A stretch of DNA of 64,000 bases, from IMG/VR virus record IMGVR_UViG_2875703104_000004; one strand, given 5' to 3'. The notes under the pieces were generated by a model. It was not told the DNA's origin. It did not search any database and was given only the letters and a program-made list of their open reading frames with translations. This document shows, piece after piece, positions 27,882-58,968 of this stretch. Made by a program: the position numbers and the translations under genes. Origin of the DNA: a virus. Taxonomy: Duplodnaviria > Heunggongvirae > Uroviricota > Caudoviricetes. How positions within the stretch are numbered: position 1 is the stretch's first letter; every line of letters starts with the position of its first letter.

Positions 27882-27888
27882 GGACGAT

Positions 27889-28635: not shown

Positions 28636-28653
28636 AGAGCTGAGAGATAAGCG

Positions 28654-29085
28654 ATGTTCCTGAAAACAGAACAATTTGAATATAACGGTGTATCCGTCAC
28701 GCTTTCTGAGCTGTCTGCGCTGCAGCGTATTGAGCATCTTGCCCTCCTGAAACGGCGGGCAGAAGAGGCTGAAGCCAGCGGCAACCTGCAGGTGAGTGTG
28801 GAAGATCTTGTCAGAACCGGCGCGTTTCTGGTGGCGATGTCCCTGTGGCATAACCATCCACAGAAAACGCAGTCACCGTCAATGAATGAGGCCGTGATGA
28901 AGATAGAGCAGGAAGTGCTCACCACCTGGCCTGCCGATGCCATTGCCCGGGCGGAAGACGTGGTGTTGTGCCTGTCCGGGATGATCGAAGCTGTTCGTCC
29001 GGATACTGATATTACTGAAGTGGCGAAAAATAACACGCTGACTGATGATGATTTTTCTGCGGGAAAGTCTTCGACGGCGAGCTGA
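28654..29085 (+). CDS. G: tail assembly chaperone G
   Basis: Paralogue of 6727..7149; GGGAAAG slippery heptamer at 29061-29067. Confidence 0.8.
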   Translation: MFLKTEQFEYNGVSVTLSELSALQRIEHLALLKRRAEEAEASGNLQVSVEDLVRTGAFLVAMSLWHNHPQKTQSPSMNEAVMKIEQEVLTTWPADAIARAEDVVLCLSGMIEAVRPDTDITEVAKNNTLTDDDFSAGKSSTAS

Positions 29086-29111
29086 ACTTTGCCCTCAGAC
29101 TGGCGCGTGAG

Positions 29112-29525
29112 ATGGGGAGACCCGACTGGCGCGCCATGCTTGCCGGGATGACATCCACCGAATATGCCGACTGGCACCGTTTTTACCGCACGCATTATTT
29201 TCAGGATACCCAGCTGGATATGCATTTTTCCGGGCTGACGTACGCTGTACTCAGCCTGTTTTTTTGCGATCCGGATATGCATCCCTCTGATTTCAGTCTG
29301 CTTGTCCCCCGGCATGAGGAAGAGCAGGTGGAGAGGCCGGATGAGGACAAAATGCTGATGCAGAAAGCGGCAGGACTTGCCGGAGGCGTCCGGTTCGGTG
29401 GGGACGGAGGGCGCGATATTTTATCGTCTGTGGATGTGGCGGATGTCATGGTGGATGATGCCGCATTAATGATGGCTTCAGCGGGGATTCCGGGAGGTGT
29501 GAGATATGTCCCAGCCGGTTGGTGA
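29112..29525 (+). CDS. T: T segment of the G-T frameshift fusion
   Basis: -1 frame relative to G, entered at the GGGAAAG at 29061-29067. Confidence 0.75.
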   Translation: MGRPDWRAMLAGMTSTEYADWHRFYRTHYFQDTQLDMHFSGLTYAVLSLFFCDPDMHPSDFSLLVPRHEEEQVERPDEDKMLMQKAAGLAGGVRFGGDGGRDILSSVDVADVMVDDAALMMASAGIPGGVRYVPAGW

Positions 29526-32217
29526 TCTTGTTATTGACCTGAGTCTGGATGCTGTCCGTTTCGATGAGCAGATGAGCCGGGTAAGGCGTCATTTTTCAGG
29601 TCTGGATACCGACGCCAGAAAAACCGCCAGTGCTGTTGAACAGGGCCTGAGCCGCCAGGCGCTGGCTGCACAAAAAGCCGGGATTTCCGTCGGGCAGTAT
29701 AAAGCGGCCATGCGAACCCTGCCCGCACAGTTTACGGATATCGCCACGCAGCTTGCCGGTGGTCAGAATCCCTGGCTGATCCTGCTGCAACAGGGCGGTC
29801 AGGTGAAGGACTCCTTCGGCGGGATGATCCCCATGTTCAGGGGGCTTGCCGGTGCGATCACCCTGCCGATGGTCGGGGTCACCTCGCTGGCGGTGGCGAC
29901 AGGTGCGCTGGTGTACGCCTGGTACCAGGGAGATTCCACGCTTTCAGCGTTTAATAAAACCCTGGTTCTTTCCGGTAATCAGTCCGGACTGACTGCCGAT
30001 CGCATGCTGACGCTCTCCAGAGCCGGACAGGCCGCAGGGCTGACGTTTAACCAGGCGAGTGAGTCACTGGCAGCCCTGGTGAATGCCGGTGTGCGTGGTG
30101 GTGAACAGTTTGATGCCATCAACCAGAGTGTCGCGCGTTTTGCTTCTGCATCCGGTGTGGAGGTGGACAAGGTTGCAGAGGCTTTCGGAAAACTGACCAC
30201 TGACCCGACGTCGGGGCTGATTGCGATGGCGAAGCAGTTCCATAACGTGACGGCGGAGCAGATTGCGTATGTTGCTCAGTTGCAGCGTTCCGGCGATGAA
30301 GCCGGGGCATTGCAGGCGGCGAACGAGGCCGCAACGAAAGGGTTTGATGACCAGACCCGACGCTTGAAAGAGAACATGGGCACGCTGGAAACCTGGGCAG
30401 ACAGGACAGCACGGGCATTCAAATCCATGTGGGATGCGGTGCTGGATATTGGTCGTCCTGATACCGCGCAGGAGATGCTGATTAAGGCAGAGGCCGCGTT
30501 TAAGAAAGCGGACGATATCTGGAATCTGCGCAAGGATGATTATTTTGTTAACGATGAAGCGCGGGCGCGTTACTGGGATGATCGTGAAAAGGCCCGTCTT
30601 GCGCTTGAAGCCGCCCGAAAGAAGGCTGAGCAGCAGAGTCAACAGGACAAAAATGCGCAGCAGCAGAGCGATACCGAAGCGTCACGGCTGAAATATACCG
30701 AAGAGGCGCAGAAGGCTTACGAACGGCTGCAGACGCCGCTGGAGAAATATACCGCCCGTCAGGAAGAACTGAACAAGGCACTGAAAGACGGGAAAATCCT
30801 GCAGGCGGATTACAACACGCTGATGGCGGCGGCGAAAAAGGATTATGAAGCGACGCTGAAAAAGCCGAAACAGTCCGGCGTGAAGGTGTCTGCGGGCGAT
30901 CGTCAGGAAGACAGTGCTCATGCTGCCCTGCTGACGCTTCAGGCNGAACTCCGGACGCTGGAGAAGCATGCCGGAGCAAATGAGAAAATCAGCCAGCAGC
31001 GCCGGGATTTGTGGAAGGCGGAGAGTCAGTTCGCGGTACTGGAGGAGGCGGCGCAACGTCGCCAGCTGTCTGCACAGGAGAAATCCCTGCTGGCGCATAA
31101 AGATGAGACGCTGGAGTACAAACGCCAGCTGGCTGCACTTGGCGACAAGGTTACGTATCAGGAGCGCCTGAACGCGCTGGCGCAGCAGGCGGATAAATTC
31201 GCACAGCAGCAACGGGCAANNNNNNNNNNNNNNNNNNNNNTGGCGCATAAAGATGAGACGCTGGAGTACAAACGCCAGCTGGCTGCACTTGGCGACAAGG
31301 TTACGTATCAGGAGCGCCTGAACGCGCTGGCGCAGCAGGCGGATAAATTCGCACAGCAGCAACGGGCAAAACGGGCCGCCATTGATGCGAAAAGCCGGGG
31401 GCTGACTGACCGGCAGGCAGAACGGGAAGCCACGGAACAGCGCCTGAAGGAACAGTATGGCGATAATCCGCTGGCGCTGAATAACGTCATGTCAGAGCAG
31501 AAAAAGACCTGGGCGGCTGAAGACCTGCTTCGCGGGAACTGGATGGCAGGCCTCAGGTCCGGCTGGAGTGAGTGGGAAGAGAGTGCCACGGACAGTATGT
31601 CGCAGGTAAAAAGTGCAGCCACGCAGACCTTTGACGGTATTGCACAGAATATGGCAGCGATGCTGACCGGCAGCGAACAGAACTGGCGTGGTTTCACCCG
31701 TTCTGTGCTGTCCATGCTGACAGAGATTTTTCTGAAGCAGGCGATGGTGGGGATTGTCGGGAGTATCGGCAGCGCTATTGGCGGGGCTGTTGGTGGCGGC
31801 GCATCCGCGTCAGGCGGTACAGCCATTCAGGCCGCTGCGGCGAAATTCCATTTTGCAACCGGAGGATTTACGGGAACCGGCGGCAAATATGAGCCAGCGG
31901 GGATTGTTCACCGTGGTGAATTTGTCTTCACGAAGGAGGCAACCAGCCGGATTGGTGTCGGCAACCTGTATCGTCTGATGCGCGGGTATGCGGAAGGTGG
32001 TTATGTCGGCGGTGCCGGAAGTCCGGCGCAGATGCGGCGGGCCGAAGGTATTAATTTTAATCAGAACAATCACGTGGTGATTCAGAACGACGGTATCAAC
32101 GGACAGGCGGGGTCGCAGCTGATGAAGGCGGTGTATGACATGGCCCGCAAGGGGGCACAGGATGAACTCCGGCTGCAGTTGCGTGATGGCGGTCTGTTAT
32201 CAGGGAGCGGTCGATGA
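29506..32217 (+). CDS. H: tail tape measure protein H (contains an N-run and a redundant block)
   Basis: 903-aa ORF paralogous to 7558..10054; N-run at 31220-31240 flanked by duplicated ~132-bp blocks. Confidence 0.8.
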   Translation: MSQPVGDLVIDLSLDAVRFDEQMSRVRRHFSGLDTDARKTASAVEQGLSRQALAAQKAGISVGQYKAAMRTLPAQFTDIATQLAGGQNPWLILLQQGGQVKDSFGGMIPMFRGLAGAITLPMVGVTSLAVATGALVYAWYQGDSTLSAFNKTLVLSGNQSGLTADRMLTLSRAGQAAGLTFNQASESLAALVNAGVRGGEQFDAINQSVARFASASGVEVDKVAEAFGKLTTDPTSGLIAMAKQFHNVTAEQIAYVAQLQRSGDEAGALQAANEAATKGFDDQTRRLKENMGTLETWADRTARAFKSMWDAVLDIGRPDTAQEMLIKAEAAFKKADDIWNLRKDDYFVNDEARARYWDDREKARLALEAARKKAEQQSQQDKNAQQQSDTEASRLKYTEEAQKAYERLQTPLEKYTARQEELNKALKDGKILQADYNTLMAAAKKDYEATLKKPKQSGVKVSAGDRQEDSAHAALLTLQXELRTLEKHAGANEKISQQRRDLWKAESQFAVLEEAAQRRQLSAQEKSLLAHKDETLEYKRQLAALGDKVTYQERLNALAQQADKFAQQQRAXXXXXXXXAHKDETLEYKRQLAALGDKVTYQERLNALAQQADKFAQQQRAKRAAIDAKSRGLTDRQAEREATEQRLKEQYGDNPLALNNVMSEQKKTWAAEDLLRGNWMAGLRSGWSEWEESATDSMSQVKSAATQTFDGIAQNMAAMLTGSEQNWRGFTRSVLSMLTEIFLKQAMVGIVGSIGSAIGGAVGGGASASGGTAIQAAAAKFHFATGGFTGTGGKYEPAGIVHRGEFVFTKEATSRIGVGNLYRLMRGYAEGGYVGGAGSPAQMRRAEGINFNQNNHVVIQNDGINGQAGSQLMKAVYDMARKGAQDELRLQLRDGGLLSGSGR

Positions 32218-32543
32218 AAACCTTTCGCTGGAAAGTGAAGCCGGATATGGAGGTGAACTCGCAGCCATCGGTGCGTGAAGTGCGTTTTGGTGACGGGTAC
32301 TCACAGCGTATGGCGGCAGGGCTGAATGCTGACCTGAAAACATACAGGGTGACGCTTTCCGTGACCCGGGAGGAGGCCCGGCATCTGGAAGCGTTCCTGG
32401 CAGAGCACGGTGGCTGGAAGGCATTTTTGTGGAAGCCACCCTATGCATACCGGCAGATAAAGGTGACCTGTGCCGGGTGGTCTGCGCGGGTCGGGATGTT
32501 GCGCGTTGAGTTCAGCGCGGAGTTTAAGCAGGTGGTGAACTGA
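32214..32543 (+). CDS. M: minor tail protein M
   Basis: Paralogue of 10051..10380. Confidence 0.85.
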   Translation: MKTFRWKVKPDMEVNSQPSVREVRFGDGYSQRMAAGLNADLKTYRVTLSVTREEARHLEAFLAEHGGWKAFLWKPPYAYRQIKVTCAGWSARVGMLRVEFSAEFKQVVN

Positions 32544-33178
32544 TGCAGGATATTCGCGAAGAAAGTCTGAACGAGTCGGTTAAGTCAGAGCAGTCACCGC
32601 GGGTGGTACTCTGGGAAATCGACCTGACGGTACAGGGTGGTGAGCGGTATTTTTTCTGTAATGAGCTGAATGAAAAAGGGGAGCCGGTCACCTGGCAGGG
32701 GCGTAAGTATGAGGCATACCCGATTGACGGCAGCGGCTTTGAGATGAACGGCCGGGGCAGCAGTGCCAGACCGTCGCTGACGGTGTCGGTCCGCCGCCGG
32801 GTGTATGCCCGTTTTCTGGATGCGGTGAATTTCGTTGCGGGCAATCCGGAGGCGGACCCGGAGCAGGAGCTGAGTGACCGCTGGGTGGTGGAGCAGATGT
32901 CGCAGCTGACAGCCATGACGGCCTCGTTTGTGCTGGCTACACCGACCGAGACGGACGGGGCGCTGTTTCCCGGTCGCATCATGCTGGCGAACACCTGTAT
33001 GTGGGATTACCGGGGAGATGAATGCGGGTATAACGGTCCTGCGGTGGCGGATGAGTTCGATAAACCCACCACGGATATCCGTAAGGACAGATGCAGCAAG
33101 TGCATGCGCGGGTGTGAACTGCGCAGGAATGTCGGCAATTTTGGCGGTTTCCTTTCCATTAATAAACTTTCGCAGTAA
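32543..33178 (+). CDS. L: minor tail protein L (21 codons shorter than the other copies)
   Basis: 211-aa ORF; lacks the segment NLFGLVTGMAEDLQSLVGATV present in the other L copies. Confidence 0.75.
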   Translation: MQDIREESLNESVKSEQSPRVVLWEIDLTVQGGERYFFCNELNEKGEPVTWQGRKYEAYPIDGSGFEMNGRGSSARPSLTVSVRRRVYARFLDAVNFVAGNPEADPEQELSDRWVVEQMSQLTAMTASFVLATPTETDGALFPGRIMLANTCMWDYRGDECGYNGPAVADEFDKPTTDIRKDRCSKCMRGCELRRNVGNFGGFLSINKLSQ

Positions 33179-33374
33179 ATCCCGGTTTATGAGGCAGTCT
33201 GTGTTATGTATCTTCTTTCGGGTGGGTACAGGGCAGTGCGCGATTTCTGGCGCAGGCAGATTGATAAAAGGGCCGCTGAGAGAATCAGCGCCAGTCAGTC
33301 AGCCGGAAGCAAACCCGAAGATCCGCTCATTCCGTAGTCACTTTCTTGACAACACCTTTCAACGAGAAAATCCC

Positions 33375-33620
33375 ATGTCAGAAATCACATCCCTGGTCAC
33401 TGCTGAGGCAGTGAAGGAAGTCCTGCGCTCTGAAGAAGTCCNGAGNGCACTGAAACAGAAACTCCGCCAGAACCTTGAGNCGCGTCTTGATGCAGAAGTG
33501 GATGCCATTCTGGATGAGCTGCTGGGCGTACCAGCGGTTCCGGAGCCGGAAGGTATCGCGGGTGACGGGAGTGCTTCAGATGGCGGTGAACCCACACCTG
33601 ACAGCGACATGATGATGTAA
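33375..33620 (+). CDS. hypothetical small acidic protein
   Basis: 82-codon ORF starting [17 protein letters not shown] with a strongly acidic C-terminus; contains ambiguous bases; no match recognised. Confidence 0.3.
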
Positions 33621-33696: not shown

Positions 33697-34062
33697 ATGT
33701 ACCAGATGGAAAAAATCACAACAGGTGTGTCATACACCACGTCAGCGGTGGGAACGGGCTACTGGTTCCTGCAGTTGCTGGACAGGGTTTCCCCGTCTCA
33801 GTGGGCGGCAATAGGCGTGCTGGGGAGTCTGCTGTTTGNNNNNNNNNNNNNNNNNNNNNAAAAAATCACAACAGGTGTGTCATACACCACGTCAGCGGTG
33901 GGAACGGGCTACTGGTTCCTGCAGTTGCTGGACAGGGTTTCCCCGTCTCAGTGGGCGGCAATAGGCGTGCTGGGGAGTCTGCTGTTTGGGCTGCTGACAT
34001 ATCTGACTAACCTGTATTTCAAAATCAGAGAGGACCGGCGTAAGGCGGCGCGGGGAGAGTAA
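33697..34062 (+). CDS. S: class II holin / pinholin (phage 21 S-like); ORF inflated by a redundant block around an N-run
   Basis: [26 protein letters not shown]...[40 protein letters not shown]: two TM segments, charged C-terminus, dual-start M..M; 33711-33838 repeated after the N-run 33839-33859. Confidence 0.75.
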
Positions 34063-46976: not shown

Positions 46977-49900
46977 ATGGCGACGTTACGTGAACTGATT
47001 ATCAAAATTTCGGCAAATTCGCAGTCATTCCAGTCGGAGATCCAGCGGGCTTCCCGCATGGGCAGTGAATATTATCGGACCCTGCAGAATGGCGGGCGTC
47101 AGGCTGCCGCAGTCGCCCGGGAGCAGCGACGCGCCCTGGCTGAGCTGAACAGCCAGTTGACGGAAATCCGCGCTTCAGCTGCCGGAACGGCGGGGGCATT
47201 TGCCGGTGCCTTTGCCACCGGGCACCTGATTTCTCTGGCCGATGAATGGAGTTCCGTGAATGCCCGACTGAAACAGGCGTCGCAGTCATCCGATGAATTT
47301 TCGTCATCACAGAAAGTGCTGATGGATATCAGCCAGCGGACGGGCACGGCATTTTCAGATAATGCGGCCCTGTTTGCCCGCTCGGCAGCCTCAATGCGTG
47401 AATATGGTTACAGTGCTGATGATGTGCTGAAGGTGACGGAGGCCATTTCGACAGGACTGAAACTGTCAGGGGCTGGAGTTGCGGAATCCGGTTCGGTGAT
47501 CACCCAGTTCAGCCAGGCACTGGCACAGGGTGTACTGCGTGGCGAAGAATTTAATGCTGTTAACGAAAATGGCGACCGGGTGATCCGCGCGCTTGCTGCG
47601 GGGATGGGTGTGGCCCGTAAAGATCTGAAGGCAATGGCGGATGACGGAAAACTGACAGCGGATAAAGTGGTCCCTGCGTTAATCAGCCAGCTGGGGATAT
47701 TACGTGATGAATATGCGGCCATGCCGGAAACGGTTTCCGGTAGTATCACGAAGGTGGAAAACGCCTTTATGGCCTGGGTGGGCGGTGTGAATGAAGCCAG
47801 CGGCTCGACGAAAACGCTCTCCGGCGTGCTGAATGGTGTGGCCGGACATATTGATGCAGTGGCAACAGCAGCGGGGGCGCTGGTTGCCGTCGGGGTTGCC
47901 CGGTACTTTGGCAATATGGCCTCCGGAGCGGTGTCTGCCACGGCAGGACTTGTGACGGCAGCACGTAATGAAGTGGCACTGGCGGAAGCACAGCTCAGGG
48001 GGACGCAGATTGCCACGGCGCGGGCAAGGGCAGCCGTGTACCGTGCACAGCAGGCTGTGGCGGCAGCCCGCGGGACGGAGATGCAGATTGCTGCAGAAGC
48101 CCGTCTGGCGGCCACACAGGAACGCCTGAACAGAAATATTGCTGCCAGAACCGCAGCCCAGAATGCGCTGAACAGTACAACGGCGGTGGGTTCACGTCTG
48201 ATGACTGGTGCGTTGGGACTGGTTGGTGGCGTACCCGGACTGGTGATGCTGGGGGCAGCAGCATGGTATACGCTGTACCAGAATCAGGAGCAGGCCAGGG
48301 AGTCAGCGCGCCAGTATGCACTGACGATAGATGAAATCGCGCATAAAACGCCGTCAATGTCTTTGCCTGAAGCCTCAGATAATGAAGGACGAACACGGGC
48401 GGCGCTGACAGAGCAGAACCGGCTGATTGATGAACAGGCCAGCCGGGTGAAATCCCTGCAGGAAAAAATCGCTGGATATCAGTATGTTCTGGCTAACCCT
48501 GGCTGGACAACCGGTGACGGATTCATGATAAACCATCTGACATCGGTGAAGACCGTAACGGAAGGGCTTTCTCAGGCAACAGAGCAGCTTGCCGTTGAGC
48601 AGTCCCGTCTGGCACAGATGCAGGAAAAAGCGCAGTCCATTCAGGATGTGCTTGCCGGGCTGGAAGACCGTCGTGTGGCGTTAATTCGTCAGCAGGCGGC
48701 AGAGCAGAATAAGGTGTACCAGTCCATGCTGGTTATGAACGGTCAGCATACGGAATTCAACCGTCTGCTGGGGCTGGGGAATGAACTGCTTCAGCAGCGG
48801 CAGGGACTGGTGAATGTGCCGTTACGGCTGCCACAGACCACTCTGGATAATAAACAGCAGAGCGCCCTGACAAAAACAGAGCGTGAGCTGGCCCTGTCCA
48901 GACTGAAAGGGGAAGAAAAAGAGCGTGCCCGGCTGGGGTATGCGGCCGATGACCTCGGTTTTGTGGGGGATTCGTATCAGGAGGCGAGACAGCGTTATAT
49001 CAGTAATGCTCTGGAAGCCTGGCGTAATAACGAGGCGAACAAACCTAAATCCCGGGGTGGAAAATCAGAGACGGAAAAAGCGGAAGACAGTTTTTCCCGG
49101 CTACTGAAACAGCAGAAAGAGCAACTGGCACTGGCGGGTCAGAATACAGAACTGGCGAAGCTGAAGTACCAGACTGCGCAGGGAGAACTGAAAACCCTGA
49201 CGGAGATGCAGAAGCAGGAACTGCTGCGTAACGCGGCCCTGATTGACCAGCAAAAAATCCGGGAACAGTTGCGATCCCGGGAAGAGACCCTGAAGAATGA
49301 TAATGTGGCTGCGCGTGCATCAAATGAAGCCGAACTGCTGGGGTACGGGCAGGGAGAACGAGCCAGGGAACGCATGCGGGAGTTGCAGCAGATCCGCGAC
49401 AGCTTCCGCCAGAAGGATGCGGACCTTCAGTCTCAGTATCAGACCGGGGATATCAGTGAGGATTTTTACAGACAGGCACGGGCACAGAACGCGCAGTATC
49501 TGAGCGAACGCCTTAAGGACCAGGCAGCCTTTTATGCCGAATCGGATGCGCAGCGTGCGGACTGGCAGAAAGGCTTGCAGGAGGGGCTCAGTAACTGGGT
49601 GGACAATGCATCCGATTACGCCTCTCAGGCAGCACAGCTGGCAACGGAGGGGATTTCAGGACTGGTGAATAACATCACGGAGATGCTGAACGGAAACAAA
49701 GTGGAATGGCGCAACTGGGCCTCATCCGTACTGCAGGAAATCTCAAAAGTTCTTATGAATGCCGCGATTGTCAACGGAATTAAGACGGCGGCAAACGGTA
49801 TGTCCGGTGCGGGAGGATTTATTGGCAGCATTGGTGACTGGCTGGGCGGTGCGGTGGCCAATGCAAAAGGCGGCGTGTATACCTCGGCAAACCTGAGTGC

Positions 49901-50219
49901 GTACAGCAACAGCATTGTGGACACGCCCACGTACTTTGCGTTTGCAAAAGGGGCCGGGCTGATGGGGGAAGCCGGACCTGAAGCCATTATGCCCCTGACC
50001 CGGGCGGCGGATGGCTCGCTGGGCGTACGCGCGGTGGGCAGTATGAACGGCAGTGCCGGTCTGGTGTATTCCCCGGTCTACCACATCGCCATTCAGAATG
50101 ACGGGGCTAACGGACAGATAGGGCCGGAGGCGGCAGGCAGTCTTGTGCAGCTGATTGACCAGCGGGTGCAGGCGGTGATGCTGTCCATGCGACGTGACGG
50201 AGGAATGCTGAGTGGCTGA
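46977..50219 (+). CDS. tail tape measure protein
   Basis: 1080-aa ORF, Ala/Gln-rich and coiled-coil-like; located between chaperone genes and M. Confidence 0.85.
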   Translation: MATLRELIIKISANSQSFQSEIQRASRMGSEYYRTLQNGGRQAAAVAREQRRALAELNSQLTEIRASAAGTAGAFAGAFATGHLISLADEWSSVNARLKQASQSSDEFSSSQKVLMDISQRTGTAFSDNAALFARSAASMREYGYSADDVLKVTEAISTGLKLSGAGVAESGSVITQFSQALAQGVLRGEEFNAVNENGDRVIRALAAGMGVARKDLKAMADDGKLTADKVVPALISQLGILRDEYAAMPETVSGSITKVENAFMAWVGGVNEASGSTKTLSGVLNGVAGHIDAVATAAGALVAVGVARYFGNMASGAVSATAGLVTAARNEVALAEAQLRGTQIATARARAAVYRAQQAVAAARGTEMQIAAEARLAATQERLNRNIAARTAAQNALNSTTAVGSRLMTGALGLVGGVPGLVMLGAAAWYTLYQNQEQARESARQYALTIDEIAHKTPSMSLPEASDNEGRTRAALTEQNRLIDEQASRVKSLQEKIAGYQYVLANPGWTTGDGFMINHLTSVKTVTEGLSQATEQLAVEQSRLAQMQEKAQSIQDVLAGLEDRRVALIRQQAAEQNKVYQSMLVMNGQHTEFNRLLGLGNELLQQRQGLVNVPLRLPQTTLDNKQQSALTKTERELALSRLKGEEKERARLGYAADDLGFVGDSYQEARQRYISNALEAWRNNEANKPKSRGGKSETEKAEDSFSRLLKQQKEQLALAGQNTELAKLKYQTAQGELKTLTEMQKQELLRNAALIDQQKIREQLRSREETLKNDNVAARASNEAELLGYGQGERARERMRELQQIRDSFRQKDADLQSQYQTGDISEDFYRQARAQNAQYLSERLKDQAAFYAESDAQRADWQKGLQEGLSNWVDNASDYASQAAQLATEGISGLVNNITEMLNGNKVEWRNWASSVLQEISKVLMNAAIVNGIKTAANGMSGAGGFIGSIGDWLGGAVANAKGGVYTSANLSAYSNSIVDTPTYFAFAKGAGLMGEAGPEAIMPLTRAADGSLGVRAVGSMNGSAGLVYSPVYHIAIQNDGANGQIGPEAAGSLVQLIDQRVQAVMLSMRRDGGMLSG

Positions 50220-50553
50220 GATAAAAACGCTGCATCTGGTCCCGCGTGAAGGGATGCAGGTGAGTGAGAAACCGTCGGTGGTGAGGGTTCGGTTTGGTGA
50301 CGGTTATGAACAGCGCCGACCGACGGGACTTAATGCCAGACTGAAGACGTTTCAGGCGGTGTTCCGGGTGACGGATGAACCAACCCGGCGCTGGCTGGAT
50401 GAATTTTTATCCTGGCATGGTGGTTACCGTGCCTTTTTGTGGCGACCGCCGAAACATAACCGGACGGTGAGGGTGGTATGCCGGGAGTGGAGCGTCACAG
50501 ATAACGCCAGGTACAGTGATTTCAGTTGTACGATTGAGCAGGTGGTGAACTGA
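50212..50553 (+). CDS. M: minor tail protein M
   Basis: 113-aa ORF with FGDGYEQR, LNA.LKT and GGY.AFLW as in the other M copies. Confidence 0.8.
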   Translation: MAEIKTLHLVPREGMQVSEKPSVVRVRFGDGYEQRRPTGLNARLKTFQAVFRVTDEPTRRWLDEFLSWHGGYRAFLWRPPKHNRTVRVVCREWSVTDNARYSDFSCTIEQVVN

Positions 50554-51408
50554 TGCAGGATATTCACGAAGAAAGTCTGAACGAGTCGGTTAAATCAGAG
50601 CAGTCACCGCGGGTGGTACTCTGGGAAATCGACCTGACGGTACAGGGCGGTGAGCGGTATTTTTTCTGTAATGAGCTGAATGAAAAAGGGGAGCCGGTCA
50701 CCTGGCAGGGGCGTAAGTATGAGGCATACCCGATTGACGGCAGCGGCTTTGAGATGAACGGCCGGGGCAGCAGTGCCAGACCGTCGCTGACGGTGTCCAA
50801 TCNGTGGTGAGCGGTATTTTTTCTGTAATGAGCTGAATGAAAAAGGGGAGCCGGTCACCTGGCAGGGGCGTAAGTATGAGGCATACCCGATTGACGGCAG
50901 CGGCTTTGAGATGAACGGCCGGGGCAGCAGTGCCAGACCGTCGCTGACGGTGTCCAATCTGTTCGGTCTGGTCACCGGGATGGCGGAAGACCTGCAGAGT
51001 CTGGTGGGGGCCACGGTGGTCCGCCGCCGGGTGTATGCCCGTTTTCTGGATGCGGTGAATTTCGTTGCGGGCAATCCGGAGGCGGACCCGGAGCAGGAGC
51101 TGAGTGACCGCTGGGTGGTGGAGCAGATGTCGCAGCTGACAGCCATGACGGCCTCGTTTGTGCTGGCTACACCGACCGAGACGGACGGGGCGCTGTTTCC
51201 CGGTCGCATCATGCTGGCGAACACCTGTATGTGGGATTACCGGGGAGATGAATGCGGGTATAACGGTCCTGCGGTGGCGGATGAGTTCGATAAACCCACC
51301 ACGGATATCCGTAAGGACAGATGCAGCAAGTGCATGCGCGGGTGTGAACTGCGCAGGAATGTCGGCAATTTTGGCGGTTTCCTTTCCATTAATAAACTTT
51401 CGCAGTAA
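50553..51408 (+). CDS. L: minor tail protein L (contains a redundant block around n 50803)
   Basis: L N-terminus to about codon 84, n at 50803, then L restarts from about codon 33 and runs to the LSINKLSQ stop at 51408. Confidence 0.7.
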
Positions 51409-52576
51409 ATCCCGGTTTATGACACAGACTGAATCAGCGATTCTGGCGCATGCCCGGCGGTGTGTGCCTGCGGAGTCGTGCGGCTTAGTGGTGAGAACGC
51501 CGGAGGGGGAGCGGTATATCCCTTGTGTGAATATCTNCCAATCTGTTCGGTCTGGTCACCGGGATGGCGGAAGACCTGCAGAGTCTGGTGGGGGCCACGG
51601 TGGTCCGCCGCCGGGTGTATGCCCGTTTTCTGGATGCGGTGAATTTCGTTGCGGGCAATCCGGAGGCGGACCCGGAGCAGGAGCTGAGTGACCGCTGGGT
51701 GGTGGAGCAGATGTCGCAGCTGACAGCCATGACGGCCTCGTTTGTGCTGGCCACACCGACCGAGACGGACGGGGCGCTGTTTCCCGGTCGTATCATGCTG
51801 GCGAACACCTGTATGTGGACCTACCGCTCTGATGAGTGTGGTTACACGGGCGGGGCAGTGGCGGATGAGTTCGATAAACCCACCACGGATATCCGTAAGG
51901 ACAGATGCAGCAAGTGCATGCGCGGGTGTGAACTGCGCAGGAATGTCGGCAATTTTGGCGGTTTCCTTTCCATTAATAAACTTTCGCAGTAAATCCCGGT
52001 TTATGACACAGACTGAATCAGCGATTCTGGCGCATGCCCGGCGGTGTGTGCCTGCGGAGTCGTGCGGCTTNCTTTGAGATGAACGGCCGGGGCAGCAGTG
52101 CCAGACCGTCGCTGACGGTGTCCAATCTGTTCGGTCTGGTCACCGGGATGGCGGAAGACCTGCAGAGTCTGGTGGGGGCCACGGTGGTCCGCCGCCGGGT
52201 GTATGCCCGTTTTCTGGATGCGGTGAATTTCGTTGCGGGCAATCCGGAGGCGGACCCGGAGCAGGAGCTGAGTGACCGCTGGGTGGTGGAGCAGATGTCG
52301 CAGCTGACAGCCATGACGGCCTCGTTTGTGCTGGCTACACCGACCGAGACGGACGGGGCGCTGTTTCCCGGTCGCATCATGCTGGCGAACACCTGTATGT
52401 GGGATTACCGGGGAGATGAATGCGGGTATAACGGTCCTGCGGTGGCGGATGAGTTCGATAAACCCACCACGGATATCCGTAAGGACAGATGCAGCAAGTG
52501 CATGCGCGGGTGTGAACTGCGCAGGAATGTCGGCAATTTTGGCGGTTTCCTTTCCATTAATAAACTTTCGCAGTAA
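51409..52576. repeat. two redundant 584-bp blocks, each K 5' end + n + L 3' part
   Basis: L stop codons at 51408, 51992 and 52576 (period 584 bp); n at 51539 and 52071 marks the jump from K sequence back into L. Confidence 0.8.
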
Positions 52577-52586
52577 ATCCCGGTTT

Positions 52587-53330
52587 ATGACACAGACTGA
52601 ATCAGCGATTCTGGCGCATGCCCGGCGGTGTGTGCCTGCGGAGTCGTGCGGCTTAGTGGTGAGAACGCCGGAGGGGGAGCGGTATATCCCTTGTGTGAAT
52701 ATCTCTGCAGAGCCGGAGGCGTATTTTCGTATTGCACCGGAAGACTGGCTGCGGGCAGAGATGCAGGGGGAGATTGTGGCACTGGTCCACAGTCATCCCG
52801 GTGGGCTGCCCTGGCTGAGCGAGGCTGACCGGCGGCTGCAGATAAAAAGCGCACTGCCCTGGTGGCTGGTCTGCCGGGGTGACATTCACAAATTCCGCTG
52901 CGTGCCGCACCTGACGGGACGGCGCTTTGAGCACGGGGTGACGGACTGTTACACCCTGTTCCGGGATGCATACCATCTGGCGGGGACTGAAATGCCGGAT
53001 TTTCATCGCGAGGATGACTGGTGGCGCAACGGTCAGAACCTTTACCTGGACAATATGGCGGTCACCGGCTTTTACCGGGTGCCCCTGTCCTCTGCACAGG
53101 CGGGCGATATTCTGCTGTGCTGCTTTGGTGCTTCGGTACCGAACCATGCCGCCATTTACTGCGGCAACGGTGAGCTGCTTCACCATCTGCCTGAACAACT
53201 GAGTAAACGGGAGAGGTATTCCGAAAAATGGCAACGACGAACGCATTCTGTCTGGCGTCACCGCCACTGGCACGCATCTGCCTTCACGGGGATTTGCAAC
53301 GATTTGGCCGCCGCCTCAGCCTGTATGTGA
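52587..53330 (+). CDS. K: tail assembly protein K
   Basis: Starts MTQTESAILAHARRC..; HSHPGG motif; paralogue of 11084..11827. Confidence 0.85.
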   Translation: MTQTESAILAHARRCVPAESCGLVVRTPEGERYIPCVNISAEPEAYFRIAPEDWLRAEMQGEIVALVHSHPGGLPWLSEADRRLQIKSALPWWLVCRGDIHKFRCVPHLTGRRFEHGVTDCYTLFRDAYHLAGTEMPDFHREDDWWRNGQNLYLDNMAVTGFYRVPLSSAQAGDILLCCFGASVPNHAAIYCGNGELLHHLPEQLSKRERYSEKWQRRTHSVWRHRHWHASAFTGICNDLAAASACM

Positions 53331-53908
53331 ACACGGCAGCGGAAGCCATTCGCGCCCTGTCGATGCAGATGCCGGGCTTTCGCCGTCAGATGAACGAAGG
53401 CTGGTACCAGATACGTATTGCCGGTGATGACACGGCACCGGAGGCGGTGTATGCCCGTCTTCACGAACAGCTGGGTGAGGGAACGGTCATCCACATTGTG
53501 CCGCGACTGGCCGGGGCCGGAAAGGGTGGACTGCAGATTGTGCTGGGGGCGGCAGCCATCGTGGGCTCTTTCTTCACGGCCGGAGGCTCGATGGCGTTAT
53601 GGGGTACAGCCCTGAGTGCCGGTGGTTTTTCTGCCACCACGATGCTGTTTTCACTGGGTGCCAGCATGATACTGGGCGGAGTGGCCCAGATGCTGGCCCC
53701 GAAGGCAAAAACACCGGATTACCGCGCAACGGATAACGGCAGACAGAACACGTACTTTTCCTCGCTGGATAACATGATTGCCCAGGGGAACCCGATGCCG
53801 GTGCCTTACGGGGAAATGCTGGTTGGCTCCCGCCGTATATCCCAGGACATCAGTACCCGTGATGAAGGCGGGGGCGGAAAGGTCGTGGTTATCGGGCGGC
53901 AGGGGTAA
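53228..53908 (+). CDS. I: tail assembly protein I
   Basis: 226-aa ORF overlapping the 3' end of K; paralogue of 11725..12396. Confidence 0.75.
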   Translation: MATTNAFCLASPPLARICLHGDLQRFGRRLSLYVNTAAEAIRALSMQMPGFRRQMNEGWYQIRIAGDDTAPEAVYARLHEQLGEGTVIHIVPRLAGAGKGGLQIVLGAAAIVGSFFTAGGSMALWGTALSAGGFSATTMLFSLGASMILGGVAQMLAPKAKTPDYRATDNGRQNTYFSSLDNMIAQGNPMPVPYGEMLVGSRRISQDISTRDEGGGGKVVVIGRQG

Positions 53909-54251
53909 AAAGAATAAAAAAATCCCGCAGTGATCGCGGACAGGAACTGCGGGAGAGTTACGAAGATTAAGTGTAAGGAATTATTCTTATATCACGACAA
54001 AAAAATTAACGCAGAGAAATTATACGCGCCACAGTCAGTTTGTGAAAATGTGAAGATATTCAGAATTTTTATGCCATTACCGGTTTTAACCAACAGGATT
54101 ATCGGTGGGCATGAAAGAAAACCCCGGTATCTGCTGATACCGGGGTTTCTCTTTAGCATGGCAGAAATGTGTTTCATGCTTTTCGGGCGAAGGATATCCG
54201 ACTTCTGTACGGAATGGCAAGTGGCGGTTAATTTATTCAGGGGAAGGCTGT

Positions 54252-57200
54252 ATGGGAAAAGGTGGCGGTAAGGCACACACGCCTCGTGAGGCGAAGGATA
54301 ATCTCAAATCCACGCAGATGATGAGTGTGATTGATGCGATTGGTGAGGGACCGATAGAAGGTCCGGTGAAGGGACTGCAGAGTATTCTGGTGAACAAAAC
54401 CCCACTGACGGACACGGACGGCAATCCCGTGATACACGGTGTGACGGCGGTCTGGCGTGCCGGGGAGCAGGAGCAGACACCACCGGAAGGCTTTGAGTCC
54501 TCCGGAGCTGAAACCGGACTGGGTGTGGAAGTGACGAAGGCAAAGCCGGTGACGCGCACCATTACGTCCGCGAACATTGACCGCCTGCGGGTTACCTTCG
54601 GGGTGCAGTCACTGGTGCAGACCACGTCAAAGGGCGACCGTAACCCGGCATCCGTCCGCCTGCTGATTCAGTTACAGCGTAATGGCCGCTGGGTGACGGA
54701 AAAGGATGTCACCATTAACGGCAAGACCACCTCGCAGTTCCTGGCCTCGGTGATTCTGGATAATCTGCCGCCCCGGCCCTTTAACATCCGGATGGTCCGG
54801 GAGACGGCGGACAGCACCACGGACCAGTTGCAGAACAGAACGCTCTGGTCATCGTACACTGAAATCATCGATGTGAAACAGTGCTACCCGAACACGGCCA
54901 TTGTGGGGCTGCAGGTGGATGCGGAGCAGTTCGGCGGCCAGCAGATGACGGTGAACTACCATATCCGCGGTCGCATCATTCAGGTGCCGTCAAACTATGA
55001 CCCGGAAAAACGCACGTACAGTGGTATCTGGGACGGCAGTCTGAAACCGGCATACAGCAACAATCCGGCCTGGTGTCTGTGGGACATGCTGACTCACCCG
55101 CGCTACGGCATGGGAAAACGTCTGGGGGCGGCGGATGTGGACAAGTGGGCGCTGTATGCCATCGGGCAGTACTGCGACCAGACGGTCCCGGATGGTTTCG
55201 GGGGGACCGAGCCGCGGATGACCTTTAATGCGTACCTGGCACAACAGCGTAAGGCGTGGGACGTTCTCAGTGATTTCTGCTCTGCGATGCGCTGTATGCC
55301 GGTATGGAACGGTCAGACGCTGACGTTCGTTCAGGACCGCCCGTCGGATGTGGTGTGGCCGTACACCAACAGCGATGTGGTGGTGGATGATAACGGCGTG
55401 GGATTCCGCTACAGCTTCAGTGCCCTGAAGGACCGGCACACGGCGGTGGAGGTGAATTACACCGACCCGCAGAACGGCTGGCAGACATCCACGGAACTGG
55501 TGGAAGACCCGGAAGCCATACTGCGCTACGGACGCAACCTGCTGAAGATGGACGCGTTCGGCTGTACCAGCCGCGGTCAGGCCCACCGTGCCGGGCTGTG
55601 GGTGATAAAGACCGAACTGCTGGAAACGCAGACGGTGGATTTCACGCTCGGGTCTCAGGGGCTGCGGCACACACCCGGTGACATCATTGAAATCTGTGAT
55701 AACGACTATGCCGGGACCCTGACCGGCGGACGTGTCCTGTCCATTGATGCTGCCACCCGCACCCTGACGCTGGACCGTGAAGTGACACTGCCGGAGACCG
55801 GTGCCGCCACGGTGAACCTGATTAACGGCAGTGGTAAGCCGGTGAGTGTGGACATCACCGAACACCCCGCGCCGGACCGGATACAGGTCAGTACCCTGCC
55901 TGATGGTGTGGAGACATACGGGGTGTGGGGACTCTCCCTGCCGTCACTGCGCCGTCGCCTGTTCCGCTGTGTCTCCGTCCGGGAAAACACGGACGGCACC
56001 TTTGCCATCACGGCGGTGCAGCACGTACCGGAAAAAGAAGCCATCGTGGATAACGGTGCCCGCTTTGAGCCGCAGTCAGGTTCCCTGAACAGCGTCATCC
56101 CACCGGCAGTGCAGCACCTGACGGTGGAGGTGAGCGCAGCTGACGGCCAGTATCTGGCGCAGGCGAAATGGGACACGCCGCGGGTGGTGAAGGGTGTGCG
56201 CTTCAGTCTGCGCCTGACCAGTGGTAAGGGAGCGGATGCCAGACTGGTGACCACCGCCATCACTGCCGATACGGAGCACCGTTTCAGTGGCCTGCCACTG
56301 GGGGAATACACCCTGACGGTCAGGGCGATTAACAGTTATGGCCAGCAGGGCGAACCGGCCACCACCACCTTCCGGATTAACGCGCCAGCAAAACCCGCCA
56401 CCATTGAACTGACGCCGGGGTATTTTCAGATAACGGCGGTCCCGCGTCTTGCGGTGTATGACCCGACGGTACAGTTTGAATTCTGGTTCTCAGAAAAACG
56501 CATCACGAACACAGCACAGGTGGNAAAATCTGCCCGTTATCTGGGGACCGGCAGTCAGTGGACTGTCCAGGGGAGCCGGATTAAGCCGGGGACGGATTTC
56601 TGGTTTTACGTGCGAAGCGTCAACCTGGTGGGAAAATCTGCTTTTGTGGAAGCCAGCGGGCAGCCCAGCAATGATGGTGAAGGGTATCTGGAAATTTTCC
56701 GGGGGCTGATAGATGAGACGCTTCTGGGCCAGGCACTGAAAGAGCGCATTGATGCTTCAGCGCTGCGTACGGAGGTCACGCAACTGGAAGAAGATATCCG
56801 TCAGCGGATGGACACGGATATCGCAGAAGTGACCCGGAAAATCGGGAAGGCGGAAAACAGCCTCACGCAGCTGGTTGCGAAAAAGAATGAGGACCAGACA
56901 CTGGCCATCGCGCAGGTGAGCCAGAAAGTGGACCGGGTGAGCAGTGAAATCTCACAGACTGTCAGCCAGGGGCAGTCAGAAAACGCCCGACAGATAGCAC
57001 AGGTCCGCCAGTACGTGGATAAAAAAGGGAGTGAAATTACCTCGACCACGGATAAAAAGCTGGGTGACCAGGCCGTGACCATACAGCAAATCCAGCGGGT
57101 TCAGTCAGACACGCGCAATGAGCTGAATGCCATGTATATGCTGAAGGTGCAGAAAACAAAAAACGGTATTCCCTATGTGGCCGGGATTGGCGCGGGGATT

Positions 57201-57944
57201 GAGGATGTTGATGGTCAGACCCTGAGTAACATTCTGCTGCAGGCCGATCGCATTGCGATGATTACCCCGGAGAACGGCAACACCACGCCGCTGTTTGTGG
57301 CGCAGGGGAATCAGCTGTTCATGAACGACGTGTTCCTGAAGCGACTGTTTGCGGTGAGCATCACGTCATCCGGCAATCCTCCGACGTTTTCCCTGACGCC
57401 GGATGGCAGGCTGACAGCCCGCAATGCGGATATCAGTGGAGCCATCACGGCGAATACCGGCACGCTCAATAATGTCACCATTAACGAGAACTGTGTCATC
57501 AGAGGGAAACTGTCTGCAAACCAGATTGAAGGCGATCTCGTTAAAACAGTGGGTAAGGCTTTCCCCCGTGACTCCCGTGCACCGAAGCGTTGGCCATCAG
57601 GAACCATTACCGTCAGGGTTTATGACGATCAGCCGTTTAACCGGCAGATTGTTATTCCGGCGGTGGCTTTCAGCGGTGCCAGACATGAGCGGGAGAACAG
57701 CGATACTTATTCGTCATGCCGCCTGATAGTGAAGAAAAACGGTGCTGAAATTTATAACCGTACCGCGATGGATAATACGCTGGTTTACAGTGGTGTTATT
57801 GATATGCCTGCTGGTCGCGGCCACATGACGCTGGAGTTTTCTGTATCAGCATGGTGGGTAAATGGCTGGTATCCCACAGCAAGTATCAGCGATTTGCTGG
57901 TTGTTGTGATGAAGAAAGCCACTGCAGGCATCACGATTAGCTGA
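54252..57944 (+). CDS. J: tail tip / host specificity protein J (intact)
   Basis: 1230-aa ORF; N-terminal two-thirds collinear with 12457..15916, with a different central/C-terminal region. Confidence 0.9.
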
Positions 57945-57962
57945 ATTTTATAACCCCAATAC

Positions 57963-57988
57963 GGGCGCCAGAAATGGCGCCTTTTTTA
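57963..57988 (+). terminator. rho-independent terminator downstream of J
   Basis: gggcgcc-agaaat-ggcgcc plus TTTTTT, identical to 15935-15960. Confidence 0.6.
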
Positions 57989-58011
57989 TTGCAGAAAAGC
58001 GAGAGGTAATT

Positions 58012-58483
58012 ATGCGTAAAGTTTGTGCAGCCATTTTGTCCGCAGCCATCTGTCTGTCCGTATCCGGTGCGCCTGCATGGGCGTCTGAACATCAGTCCAC
58101 ACTGAGCACAGGGTATCTTCATGCCCGTACGAACGCTCCCGGCAGCGATAATCTGAACGGGATTAACGTGAAATACCGTTATGAGTTTACGGACACGCTG
58201 GGGCTGGTGACGTCATTCAGTTATGCCAATGCCAAAGATGAGCAAAAAACGCATTACAGCGATACCCGCTGGCATGAAGATTCCGTGCGTAACCGCTGGT
58301 TCAGCGTCACGATGTGCTGACCGGAAGTGATGACGGTCGCCACAGCAATACGTCTCTGGCGTGGGGGGCTGGCGTGCAGTTTAACCCGACCGAATCCGTG
58401 GCCATTGATATTGCTTATGAAGGCTCCGGCAGTGGTGACTGGCGCACTGACGGTTTCATCGTGGGGGTCGGTTATAAATTCTG
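58012..58483 (+). pseudogene. lom: Ail/Lom-family outer membrane protein gene with internal deletion and frameshift
   Basis: MRKVCAAILSAAICLSVSGAPAWASEHQSTLSTGYLHARTN..; after ..RNRWFSV the frame jumps to the C-terminal ..LTGSDDGRHSNTSLAWGAGVQFNPTESVAIDIAYEGSGSGDWRTDGFIVGVGYKF. Confidence 0.75.
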
Positions 58484-58510
58484 ATTAGCCAGGTAACACA
58501 GTGTTATGAC

Positions 58511-58538
58511 AGCCCGCCGGTTCAGGCGGGCTTTTTTG
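58511..58538 (+). terminator. rho-independent terminator after lom
   Basis: agcccgcc-ggttca-ggcgggct plus TTTTTT. Confidence 0.6.
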
Positions 58539-58548
58539 TGGAGTGGAT

Positions 58549-58968
58549 ATGGCAGCAGTAAAAATCTCAGGTGTGCTGAAAGATGGTGCGGGAAAACCAA
58601 TACAGAACTGCACTATTCAGCTGAAGGCAAAGCGTAACAGCACCACGGTACTGGTGAACACGGTGGCCTCTGAAAATCCGGATGAAGCCGGGCGTTACAG
58701 CATGGATGTTGAGCATGGCCAGTACAGCGTCACCCTGCTGGTTGAAGGTTTTCCGCCTTCACATGCCGGGACCATTACCGTCTATGAAGGTTCCAGACCA
58801 GGTACGCTGAATGATTTTCTTGGCGCCATGACGGAAGATGATGTCATGCCGGAGGCACTGCGCCGTTTTGAGCTGATGGTGAATGAAGTGGCACGTCATG
58901 CCGGAGCATCATCACAGAGCGCAGCGGCAGCAAAGAAATCCGAAACTGCTGCGGCATCATCGAAGAAC
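58549..58968 (+). pseudogene. stf: side tail fibre N-terminal fragment, joined in frame to a lom fragment
   Basis: MAAVKISGVLKDGAGKPIQNCTIQLKAKRNSTT.. runs to ..AAASSKNA, then lom sequence GINVKYRYEF. Confidence 0.6.

What the first reader, a model, noticed from the sequence alone, without database searches (positions are those of the whole stretch)
50553..52576. L-K boundary is represented three times, with 584-bp spacing and shifting breakpoints
L stop codons occur at 51408, 51992 and 52576. Each 584-bp block begins with the K start and jumps back into L at an n, but at different L positions (about codon 84 versus codon 66), which is inconsistent with a simple tandem repeat. The blocks look like rotated overlapping fragments. 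The minor substitutions between copies (for example MWDYRGDECGYNGP versus MWTYRSDECGYTGG) indicate reads from more than one prophage were mixed.
Basis: seen in the sequence. Interest (0 to 1): 0.4.

Follow-up and report, generated by a model that had tools for sequence, protein, structure and literature searches.

The report
Assembly artefact: prophage L–K junction triplicated
The three copies of the boundary between phage tail genes L and K are not a real tandem repeat: overlapping fragments from two near-identical E. coli prophages were laid end to end in a draft assembly, so the feature is ordinary.

Summary
L stop codons end at 51408, 51992 and 52576. K start codons lie at 51419, 52003 and 52587. 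The period is 584 bp, and a single n sits at each jump-back (50803, 51537, 52071).

It is a mis-assembly, not biology. The n's divide the region into four overlapping fragments, A to D:
- A/B overlap 156 nt.
- C equals B[50954-51486] with 20 substitutions.
- D repeats B[50904-51536] exactly.

Removing the 1,325 redundant bases (157+584+584) gives a 2,372-bp M-L-K-I block. This block is the same length as in complete E. coli genomes. Path A+C+D has 0 mismatches to strain SCU-204. Path A+B+D has 2 substitutions against strain AREA_486. The collapsed L is 232 aa and aligns end to end with phage lambda tail tip protein L.

No junction occurs in 5,426 complete E. coli genomes. SCU-204 carries two prophages that differ at 35 sites in L but at only 1 of the next 5,721 nt (K to J). 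The L-K boundary is therefore the entry to a two-copy repeat. The exit of that repeat (58308-59993) shows the same serial layout, and all 11 n's there fall on sites where the two prophages differ.

The window holds about ten further jump-back duplications and two chimeric joins. Interest is very low.

The parts
50212..50553 (+). Tail gene M (113 aa), intact, upstream of the artefact
   Evidence: Pfam Phage_min_tail, E=2.5e-28. Annotated 'phage tail protein' in AREA_486 and SCU-204.
50553..50802 (+). End of fragment A: L codons 1-84 on the backbone of the window's third prophage (the fragment itself continues upstream). In the text as written, this reading frame terminates just after the n.
   Evidence: ORF 50553..50810 is 85 aa and ends 'SNXW*'. 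Window 43147-50805 matches SCU-204 L013 at 99.99%.
50803..50803 (.). Junction n number 1. The sequence restarts 157 nt upstream, at L nt 95.
   Evidence: The true base is t in the complete genomes.
50649..50962 (+). Exact 157-bp tandem duplication (2 copies), produced because the A/B overlap was not merged
   Evidence: Tandem Repeats Finder: period 157, 2.0 copies, 100%. Repeat family D3. Absent from complete genomes.
50804..51536 (+). Fragment B: L codon 32 to the stop at 51408, then K nt 1-118. It carries the 'DYRGDECGYNGP' allele. Its first 151 nt are 100% identical to the window's second prophage copy (32637-32787).
   Evidence: 99.7% identical to AREA_486.
51537..51537 (.). Junction n number 2. 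K nt 118 is followed by L nt 245 (codon 82), out of frame.
   Evidence: This junction is absent from complete E. coli genomes and from the viral and genome contig collections searched.
51538..52070 (+). Fragment C: L codon 82 to the stop at 51992, then K nt 1-68. It carries the alternative allele ('TYRSDECGYTGG').
   Evidence: 100% identical to SCU-204 L013 29771-30303 and to many other complete genomes as a single copy. It differs from B at 20 sites.
51752..51857 (+). Allele-specific core of fragment C. It corresponds to 51168-51273 in B and 52336-52441 in D. It is flanked by 214 and 213 identical nt within C, and by 264 and 263 nt within the B/D overlap.
   Evidence: The symmetry of these flanks accounts for the two equal 584-bp periods.
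52071..52071 (.). Junction n number 3. K nt 68 is followed by L nt 195 (codon 65).
   Evidence: Absent from complete E. coli genomes.
52072..52704 (+). Start of fragment D: 633 nt that repeat B[50904-51536] at 100%, including the third L stop at 52576 and the K start at 52587
52587..53330 (+). The only intact K gene (247 aa; JAB/MPN plus NlpC/P60 domains)
   Evidence: Pfam Prok-JAB E=9e-16 and NLPC_P60 E=7e-13. Annotated C40 family peptidase in the complete genomes.
53327..53908 (+). Tail assembly gene I (193 aa)
   Evidence: Pfam Lambda_tail_I. Annotation in L001.
52072..58307 (+). Body of the two-copy prophage repeat (3' end of L, then K, I and J), represented once in the window (collapsed)
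   Evidence: Matches both SCU-204 prophages at about 99.7%. In SCU-204 the two copies differ at 1 of 5,721 nt from the K ATG onward.
58308..59993 (+). Exit of the repeat, with the two prophage-specific continuations again written one after the other. 58308-58972 is the L012 allele. At 58970 the text jumps back 812 nt and runs 58970-59993 on the L013 allele, with 11 n's.
   Evidence: All 11 n's lie on sites where L012 and L013 differ.
32543..33192 (+). Fourth copy of L and the L-K boundary, in the window's second prophage. It carries the B allele, has a 63-nt gap at 32787/32788, and ends in a chimeric join after K nt 4.

Best explanation
This is a mis-assembly (a false duplication) in a draft E. 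coli genome.

The source strain, a close relative of strain SCU-204, carries at least two lambda-like prophages. Their sequences are distinct up to the 3' part of tail gene L and become practically identical from the L-K boundary through K, I and J, about 6 kb. The assembler could not separate the two copies. Allele-specific fragments reach only about 210-265 nt beyond the outermost distinguishing SNPs into the shared sequence. This produced short overlapping pieces:
- A: upstream, specific to the third prophage.
- B: one L allele plus the K start.
- C: the other L allele plus the K start.
- D: the shared repeat.

Instead of being merged (A with B, B with D) or kept as alternatives (B versus C), the pieces were written in series, with a single ambiguous base at each join. 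That yields a 157-bp duplication and two 584-bp duplications, and three L stop / K start pairs.

The true locus has one L (232 aa) and one K (247 aa).

Shown here: the overlaps, the collapse to the natural length, the natural origin of both alleles, the absence of the junctions from complete genomes, and the same pattern at the other end of the repeat and elsewhere in the window.

Inferred: which software step produced the joins, and which allele belongs to which prophage. A+C+D is most likely the third prophage, because it is 100% identical to SCU-204.
For: 1. An n lies exactly at each of the three jump-backs. At each n the two competing natural bases differ: t/g, c/t and a/g.
2. Fragments overlap as follows. 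A/B: 156 nt with 1 mismatch. B/C: 533 nt with 20 mismatches. B/D: 633 nt with 0 mismatches.
3. The 3,697-nt query maps in 4 pieces onto only 2,372 nt in each of the 25 best complete genomes. 3,697 - 2,372 = 1,325 = 157 + 584 + 584.
4. Collapsed A+B+D equals AREA_486 in length, with 2 substitutions. A+C+D equals SCU-204 L013 with 0 mismatches over 2,372 nt.
5. The collapsed L is 232 aa and aligns 1-232 with lambda tail tip protein L (8iyk_L, E=6e-126). L, K, M and I match the Pfam families Phage_tail_L, Prok-JAB and NLPC_P60, Phage_min_tail and Lambda_tail_I.
6. As written, no copy of L is intact, and two of the three K starts run out of frame into L.
7. Fifteen junction variants (24 nt + {none, A, C, G, T} + 24 nt) were searched against 5,426 complete E. 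coli genomes. The longest hit is a 28-nt natural stretch, and none spans a junction.
8. The two SCU-204 prophages share identical K, I and J proteins but have different L proteins. They differ at 35 sites in L and at 1 site in the following 5,721 nt.
9. The differences in C are confined to a 106-nt core with symmetric identical flanks: 214/213 nt in C and 264/263 nt in the B/D overlap. This explains the equal periods despite shifted breakpoints.
10. The exit of the same repeat shows the same serial layout, and 11 of 11 n's there lie on sites where the two prophages differ.
11. The window contains about ten more jump-back duplications of 116, 150 and 398 nt, including 129-nt copies on either side of 21-n runs. 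It also has chimeric joins to loci about 190 kb and 1.9 Mb away in SCU-204.
12. Independent short-read assemblies have contigs that break within a few bases of this same point in L. That look-up is biased towards such contigs.
13. [quoted passage not shown] SOAPdenovo2 is reported to insert gaps between overlapping contigs (PMC5368935).
Against: No reads, coverage or assembly graph are available, so the artefact is inferred from sequence and comparison only. The source record was not found in any searchable collection, so the assembler is unknown. The B allele is not present in SCU-204 itself. It is 97.7% identical to SCU-204's first prophage and 99.7% to AREA_486, so the assignment of B to a particular prophage of the source strain is uncertain. 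Several other duplications in the window have no n at the join, so more than one kind of error is involved.
Confidence: 0.96

Rival explanations
1. The source genome carries a real tandem triplication of the L 3' end / K 5' end, for example from unequal recombination between co-resident prophages in a defective prophage. The n's would be incidental low-quality bases.
For: Lambdoid prophages do recombine, and the middle copy carries a different natural allele. The two periods are equal at 584 bp.
Against: - All three junctions coincide with an n; the chance of this is about 8e-11.
- The breakpoints differ between copies.
- Copies 1 and 3 are 100% identical while copy 2 differs.
- No junction is found in 5,426 complete genomes.
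- The locus collapses to exactly the natural length.
- The same contig has about ten comparable duplications and chimeric joins.
Confidence: 0.015
2. It is still an artefact, but the second allele comes from a second strain in a mixed culture or metagenome sample, not from a second prophage in the same genome.
For: Both alleles occur in different E. coli strains: AREA_486 type and SCU-204 type. The B allele is not found in SCU-204.
Against: Two prophages within one genome are enough to explain it. SCU-204 has exactly this architecture. The n's at 59120-59291 match differences between two prophages of one genome 11 out of 11 times. The window's own second prophage copy carries the B allele. The rest of the window is 99.7-100% identical to a single strain background.
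Confidence: 0.03
3. The record is a deliberate concatenation of separate contigs, a pseudomolecule with single-n separators, rather than the output of an assembler or scaffolder. B and C would then simply be small repeat contigs placed next to each other.
For: Single n's bound short fragments of 733 and 533 nt, sizes typical of repeat contigs. The window strings together repeat-derived loci that lie far apart in complete genomes.
Against: Many joins and jump-backs in the window have no n: 17988, 22107, 23967, 33192/33193 and 59993/59994. Many n's are not joins but ambiguous consensus calls at polymorphic sites. Fragment order follows gene order rather than size.
Confidence: 0.05

Closest known systems
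False duplications in draft assemblies, heterotype and homotype (Ko et al. 2022, Genome Biol 23:205, PMC9516828)
   Same: Two near-identical sequence versions are written one after the other on the same scaffold, with a gap character between the copies. One pair differs by allele-specific sites (B versus C, heterotype-like). One pair is identical (B versus D, homotype-like). Genes are falsely gained or fragmented.
   Different: The two 'haplotypes' here are paralogous prophage copies in a haploid bacterial genome, not parental alleles of a diploid. The read-depth and read-pair criteria could not be tested.
[quoted passage not shown] This is reported for SOAPdenovo2 in PMC5368935. A single-'n' convention in SSPACE, ABySS and LINKS is recalled from their documentation, not verified here.
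   Same: A single n is flanked by sequences that overlap by 156-633 nt but were not merged.
   Different: The assembler of this record is unknown. Other n's in the contig are consensus ambiguities at polymorphic sites, and some duplications have no n. A single mechanism is therefore not established.
Phage lambda tail tip module M-L-K-I-J
   Same: After collapse the locus is a standard module. L is 232 aa and aligns full-length with lambda gpL (PDB 8iyk chain L). K has JAB and NlpC/P60 domains. M and I match their Pfam families. Order and spacing are identical to annotated E. coli prophages.
   Different: Nothing differs biologically. Only allelic substitutions are seen, in a four-residue patch at L residues 176-187.

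Membership tests
False assembly duplication (criteria of PMC9516828) | Gap character between the duplicated copies on the same scaffold | tested here: met
   An n lies at 50803, 51537 and 52071, exactly at the three jump-backs.
False assembly duplication (criteria of PMC9516828) | Copies carry allele-specific sequence (heterotype) or are identical (homotype) | tested here: met
   C differs from B at 20 sites and equals a natural allele at 100%. B and D are identical over 633 nt.
False assembly duplication (criteria of PMC9516828) | The duplication is absent from an independent high-quality assembly of the same or a closely related genome | tested here: met
   The locus is 2,372 nt with a single L-K boundary in the 25 best complete genomes. 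There are 0 mismatches to SCU-204 after collapse. No junction is found in 5,426 complete genomes.
False assembly duplication (criteria of PMC9516828) | Reduced read depth per copy and discordant read pairs across the join | not testable with these tools
   No reads are available for the source assembly.
Genuine tandem duplication | Copies in register with identical junctions, and junction sequence continuous and recoverable in independent assemblies | tested here: not met
   Breakpoints differ: L nt 245 versus 195, and K nt 118 versus 68. Junctions are interrupted by n and absent from all collections searched.
Lambda gpL (Pfam PF05100 Phage_tail_L) | Full-length match to the family profile and to lambda gpL | tested here: met
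   The collapsed L scores 309 bits against a cut-off of 25. It aligns 1-232 of 232 with 8iyk_L. As written in the window, no L copy is intact.
Lambda gpK-like tail protein (Prok-JAB plus NlpC/P60) | Both domains present in one ORF | tested here: met
   The K gene at 52587-53330 has PF14464 at residues 3-105 and PF00877 at residues 111-224.

The most novel reading that the evidence does not exclude
The source strain really carries a tandem array of three partial L'-K' units in a decaying prophage. It would have arisen by repeated unequal exchange between two co-resident lambdoid prophages, and the n's would be coincidental basecalling failures at recombination joints.
Probability: 0.015. Interest if true: 0.25.

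Novelty: not a real feature. Interest (0 to 1): 0.04.

Why it matters
It has no biological significance. Its practical value is as a warning. This contig would give false gene counts, with three L fragments and two truncated K fragments. It would suggest false tandem repeats and false prophage adjacency, with three prophage late regions and an IS region chained within 64 kb. Any annotation, prophage typing or repeat analysis based on this record should mask 50804-52654, or equivalently collapse 1,325 nt. The rest of the window should be treated as a chain of collapsed repeats. The boundary inside L where co-resident E. coli prophages converge is a recurrent break point for short-read assemblies.

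Tried and rejected
- I looked for the source record or any other carrier of junction 2 (K nt 118 / n / L nt 245). I did the same for the chimeric join at 33192/33193. I searched viral contigs, GTDB representative genomes and JGI metagenome contigs and found no hits. The assembler and accession therefore remain unknown.
- I looked up the truncated 142-aa L product by exact sequence, hoping to find the source contig. It was not there. The look-up instead returned short draft contigs (<5 kb) that begin at this point in L. This is useful but biased evidence.
- I tried to confirm from the literature that SSPACE and ABySS write a single lower-case n for unresolved negative gaps. The SSPACE-LongRead paper says only that overlapping contigs are merged if an overlap is found. 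The convention is therefore cited from memory only.
- I considered that the flank lengths reveal a de Bruijn k (k-1 = 214). I rejected this as not established, because the flanks are 154, 214 and 264 nt at different fragment ends. That fits read-anchored extension no worse than a fixed k.
- I considered reading the n at 50803 as lying 3 nt before the break, because 'n gt' fits the natural 'tgt'. Fragment B starts at 50804 with the second prophage's allele 'gt' (32637), so the n is most simply the join itself.

Full report
**1. What is in the sequence**

The region lies in a lambda-like tail module: tape measure gene (46977-50219), M (50212-50553), L (from 50553), K, I (to 53908) and J (54252-57944).

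- ORFs in the L frame end at 51408, 51992 and 52576.
- The K start 'atgacacag' follows each stop, at 51419, 52003 and 52587.
- Repeat finding and a self-BLAST give three copies with start-to-start spacings of 584 and 584 nt.
- There is also an exact 157-nt tandem duplication at 50649-50805 / 50806-50962.
- The window has 69 n's in 28 runs. Three single n's lie at 50803, 51537 and 52071, exactly where the text jumps back.

The restart points are L nt 245 (codon 82) and L nt 195 (codon 65/66). The K parts retained are 118 and 68 nt.

**2. Anatomy**

The n's cut the region into four fragments:

| Fragment | Window coordinates | Relation to the others |
|---|---|---|
| A | up to 50802 | its last 156 nt overlap the start of B (1 mismatch) |
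| B | 50804-51536 | reference for C and D |
| C | 51538-52070 | equals B[50954-51486] with 20 substitutions |
| D | from 52072 | its first 633 nt equal B[50904-51536] at 100% |

- All 20 differences between B and C lie in a 106-nt core (51752-51857 in C). They change four residues of L: D176T, G179S, N185T and P187G.
- The core is flanked by 214 and 213 identical nt in C, and by 264 and 263 nt in the B/D overlap.
- This symmetry explains why both periods are 584 although the breakpoints are shifted by 50 nt. The fragments extend a fixed distance beyond the outermost allele-specific sites into shared sequence. That is how allele-specific contigs end inside a repeat.
- At each n, the natural continuation base differs from the base that naturally precedes the next fragment: t/g, c/t and a/g.
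- As written, no L copy is intact, and two K starts run out of frame into L.

**3. Comparison with complete genomes**

- The 3,697-nt stretch 50212-53908 is covered 100% in the 25 best complete E. coli chromosomes. It maps as 4 pieces onto only 2,372 nt. The surplus is 1,325 = 157 + 584 + 584.
- In AREA_486 the annotated genes there are tape measure, tail protein, minor tail protein L, C40 peptidase and tail assembly protein, each once.
- Collapsing A+B+D gives 2,372 nt, the same length as AREA_486, with 2 substitutions and n = t.
- Collapsing A+C+D gives 0 mismatches over 2,372 nt to the trp/ompW-side prophage of strain SCU-204.
- Fragment C alone is 100% identical, as a single copy, to many complete genomes.
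- The collapsed L is 232 aa and aligns 1-232 with phage lambda tail tip protein L (8iyk_L, E=6e-126).
- L, K, M and I match Phage_tail_L, Prok-JAB plus NLPC_P60, Phage_min_tail and Lambda_tail_I.

**4. Do the junctions exist anywhere?**

I concatenated 15 junction variants: 24 nt left, then nothing or A, C, G or T, then 24 nt right, for each of the three junctions. I searched them with megablast (28-nt word) against 5,426 complete E. coli genomes.

- The only hits are a 28-nt stretch that is natural L sequence. Nothing spans a junction.
- Junction 2 is also absent from the viral and GTDB genome collections.

**5. Why here**

SCU-204 has two lambdoid prophages about 190 kb apart.

- Their K, I and J proteins have the same accessions, but their L proteins differ.
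- At the nucleotide level they differ at 35 sites in L, including the same patch at nt 526-564. They differ at only 1 of the next 5,721 nt.
- The L-K boundary is thus the entry to a roughly 6-kb two-copy repeat.
- An exact-product look-up shows that many independent short-read assemblies have short contigs (<5 kb) starting within 0-5 nt of the same point in L. These include NCBI drafts, Logan assemblies and an ENA metagenome scaffold. The look-up is biased towards such contigs, but it shows that the break recurs.

**6. The other end of the repeat, and the rest of the window**

The window maps onto SCU-204 as follows:

| Window | Match |
|---|---|
| 1-16660 | a third lambdoid prophage (94-96% to L012 over its first ~4.4 kb, lower beyond) |
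| 16661-33192 | the potB/pepT-side prophage (L012) |
| 33193-59993 | the trp-side prophage (L013) |
| 59994-64000 | an IS3/IS30/lactate permease locus, 100% identical, about 1.9 Mb away in SCU-204 |

- The joins at 33192/33193 and 59993/59994 are chimeric.
- At the exit of the K-J repeat the two prophage-specific continuations are again written in series. 58308-58972 is the L012 allele at 100%. The text then jumps back 812 nt, and 58970-59993 follows the L013 allele.
- All 11 single n's at 59120-59291 lie exactly on sites where the two SCU-204 prophages differ. This shows directly that sequence from two prophage copies was piled together and that conflicting columns were written as n.
- Further jump-back duplications absent from SCU-204:
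  - 589-821 and 21991-22223 (116 nt; the 21991-22223 copy interrupts the portal gene)
  - 17838-18138 (150 nt)
  - 22896-23690 (398 nt, with an n at 23293)
  - 23817-24120 (150 nt)
  - 129-nt copies on either side of the 21-n runs at 31220-31240 and 33839-33859
- The window's second prophage copy of L (32543-33192) carries the B allele at 100%. It has a 63-nt gap starting at the same coordinate where fragment C begins.

**7. Explanation**

This is a false duplication. Overlapping fragments from a collapsed two-copy prophage repeat were concatenated instead of being merged or kept as alternatives.

- B/D is a homotype-like false duplication, and B/C a heterotype-like one, in the sense of Ko et al. 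2022. Those authors list gaps between duplicated pairs on one scaffold as a hallmark (PMC9516828).
- SOAPdenovo2 is reported to insert gaps between overlapping contigs (PMC5368935).
- From memory only, SSPACE, ABySS and LINKS write a single n for an unresolved negative gap. I could not verify this in the library.
- Which program made this record is unknown, and the record was not found.
- The likeliest true sequence of this prophage is A+C+D, because the surrounding window is nearly identical to SCU-204. B would then belong to the second prophage, or to another one. A+B+D is also a natural haplotype (AREA_486), so the assignment needs reads.

**8. Rivals**

- A genuine tandem triplication is very unlikely, at about 1.5%. 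All junctions coincide with an n (chance about 8e-11). The breakpoints are unequal. Copies 1 and 3 are identical while copy 2 differs. The junctions are absent from complete genomes. The locus collapses to the natural length, and the contig is full of comparable errors.
- A second strain as the source of the second allele is possible but unnecessary (about 3%).
- A hand-made concatenation of contigs does not fit the many joins without an n, nor the n's that are consensus ambiguities (about 5%).

**9. Verdict**

The feature is not biological. Interest is very low, and its only use is as a flag on the quality of this record.

Noticed in passing
window 1-64000: The whole window chains repeat-derived loci of an E. 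coli genome very close to SCU-204. It holds three lambdoid prophage late regions (1-16660, 16661-33192, 33193-59993) and then an IS3/IS30/lactate permease locus (59994-64000). That last locus lies about 1.9 Mb from the prophage in SCU-204. The joins at 33192/33193 (K nt 4 to the lysis module of another prophage) and 59993/59994 are chimeric and carry no n.
   Followed up: partly
window 589-821 and 21991-22223: An exact 116-nt tandem duplication (117-nt copies sharing one base) occurs in both the first and the second prophage. All four copies are 100% identical although the flanks are only about 97% alike. It is absent from SCU-204, and the 21991-22223 copy interrupts the portal gene, so it is probably another assembly artefact.
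   Followed up: partly
window 17838-18138; 23817-24120; 31091-31369; 33710-33988; 22896-23690: Further jump-back duplications are absent from SCU-204. Their periods are 150 nt (two of them as 129-nt copies on either side of 21-n runs) and 398 nt (with an n at 23293). The recurring 150-nt period suggests read-length units.
   Followed up: partly
window 32787/32788: The second prophage's copy of L lacks 63 nt in frame (equivalent to 50955-51017). The gap starts at the same coordinate where fragment C begins. It is probably an overlap removed twice, but a real deletion is not excluded.
   Followed up: no
window 58307/58308 and 59120-59291: 127 nt of the lom region are skipped at 58307/58308 and reappear at 59120-59246 after a jump back of 812 nt. 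All 11 single n's in 59120-59291 coincide with sites where the two SCU-204 prophages differ.
   Followed up: yes
window 43147-43517: An imperfect (about 86%) 162-nt tandem repeat lies in a head-morphogenesis gene, with one more unit than in SCU-204 (where the gene is annotated as a frameshifted portal protein). It has no n and diverged copies, so it looks like natural copy-number variation.
   Followed up: no
L003, L004, L007 (draft contigs): In some E. coli prophages a roughly 1.5-kb insert lies between L and K. It encodes a ClpP-like protease, Arc-family repressors and a Bro-N/P22 antirepressor-like protein. It is a natural moron-like insertion at the L-K boundary.
   Followed up: no
window 17234, 17550, 17670, 17788, 23660-23663, 30945, 33442-33480, 56524: These are other isolated n's that are not at jump-backs. 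They are presumably ambiguous consensus calls at sites that differ between prophage copies, like those at 59120-59291. This was not checked site by site.
   Followed up: no
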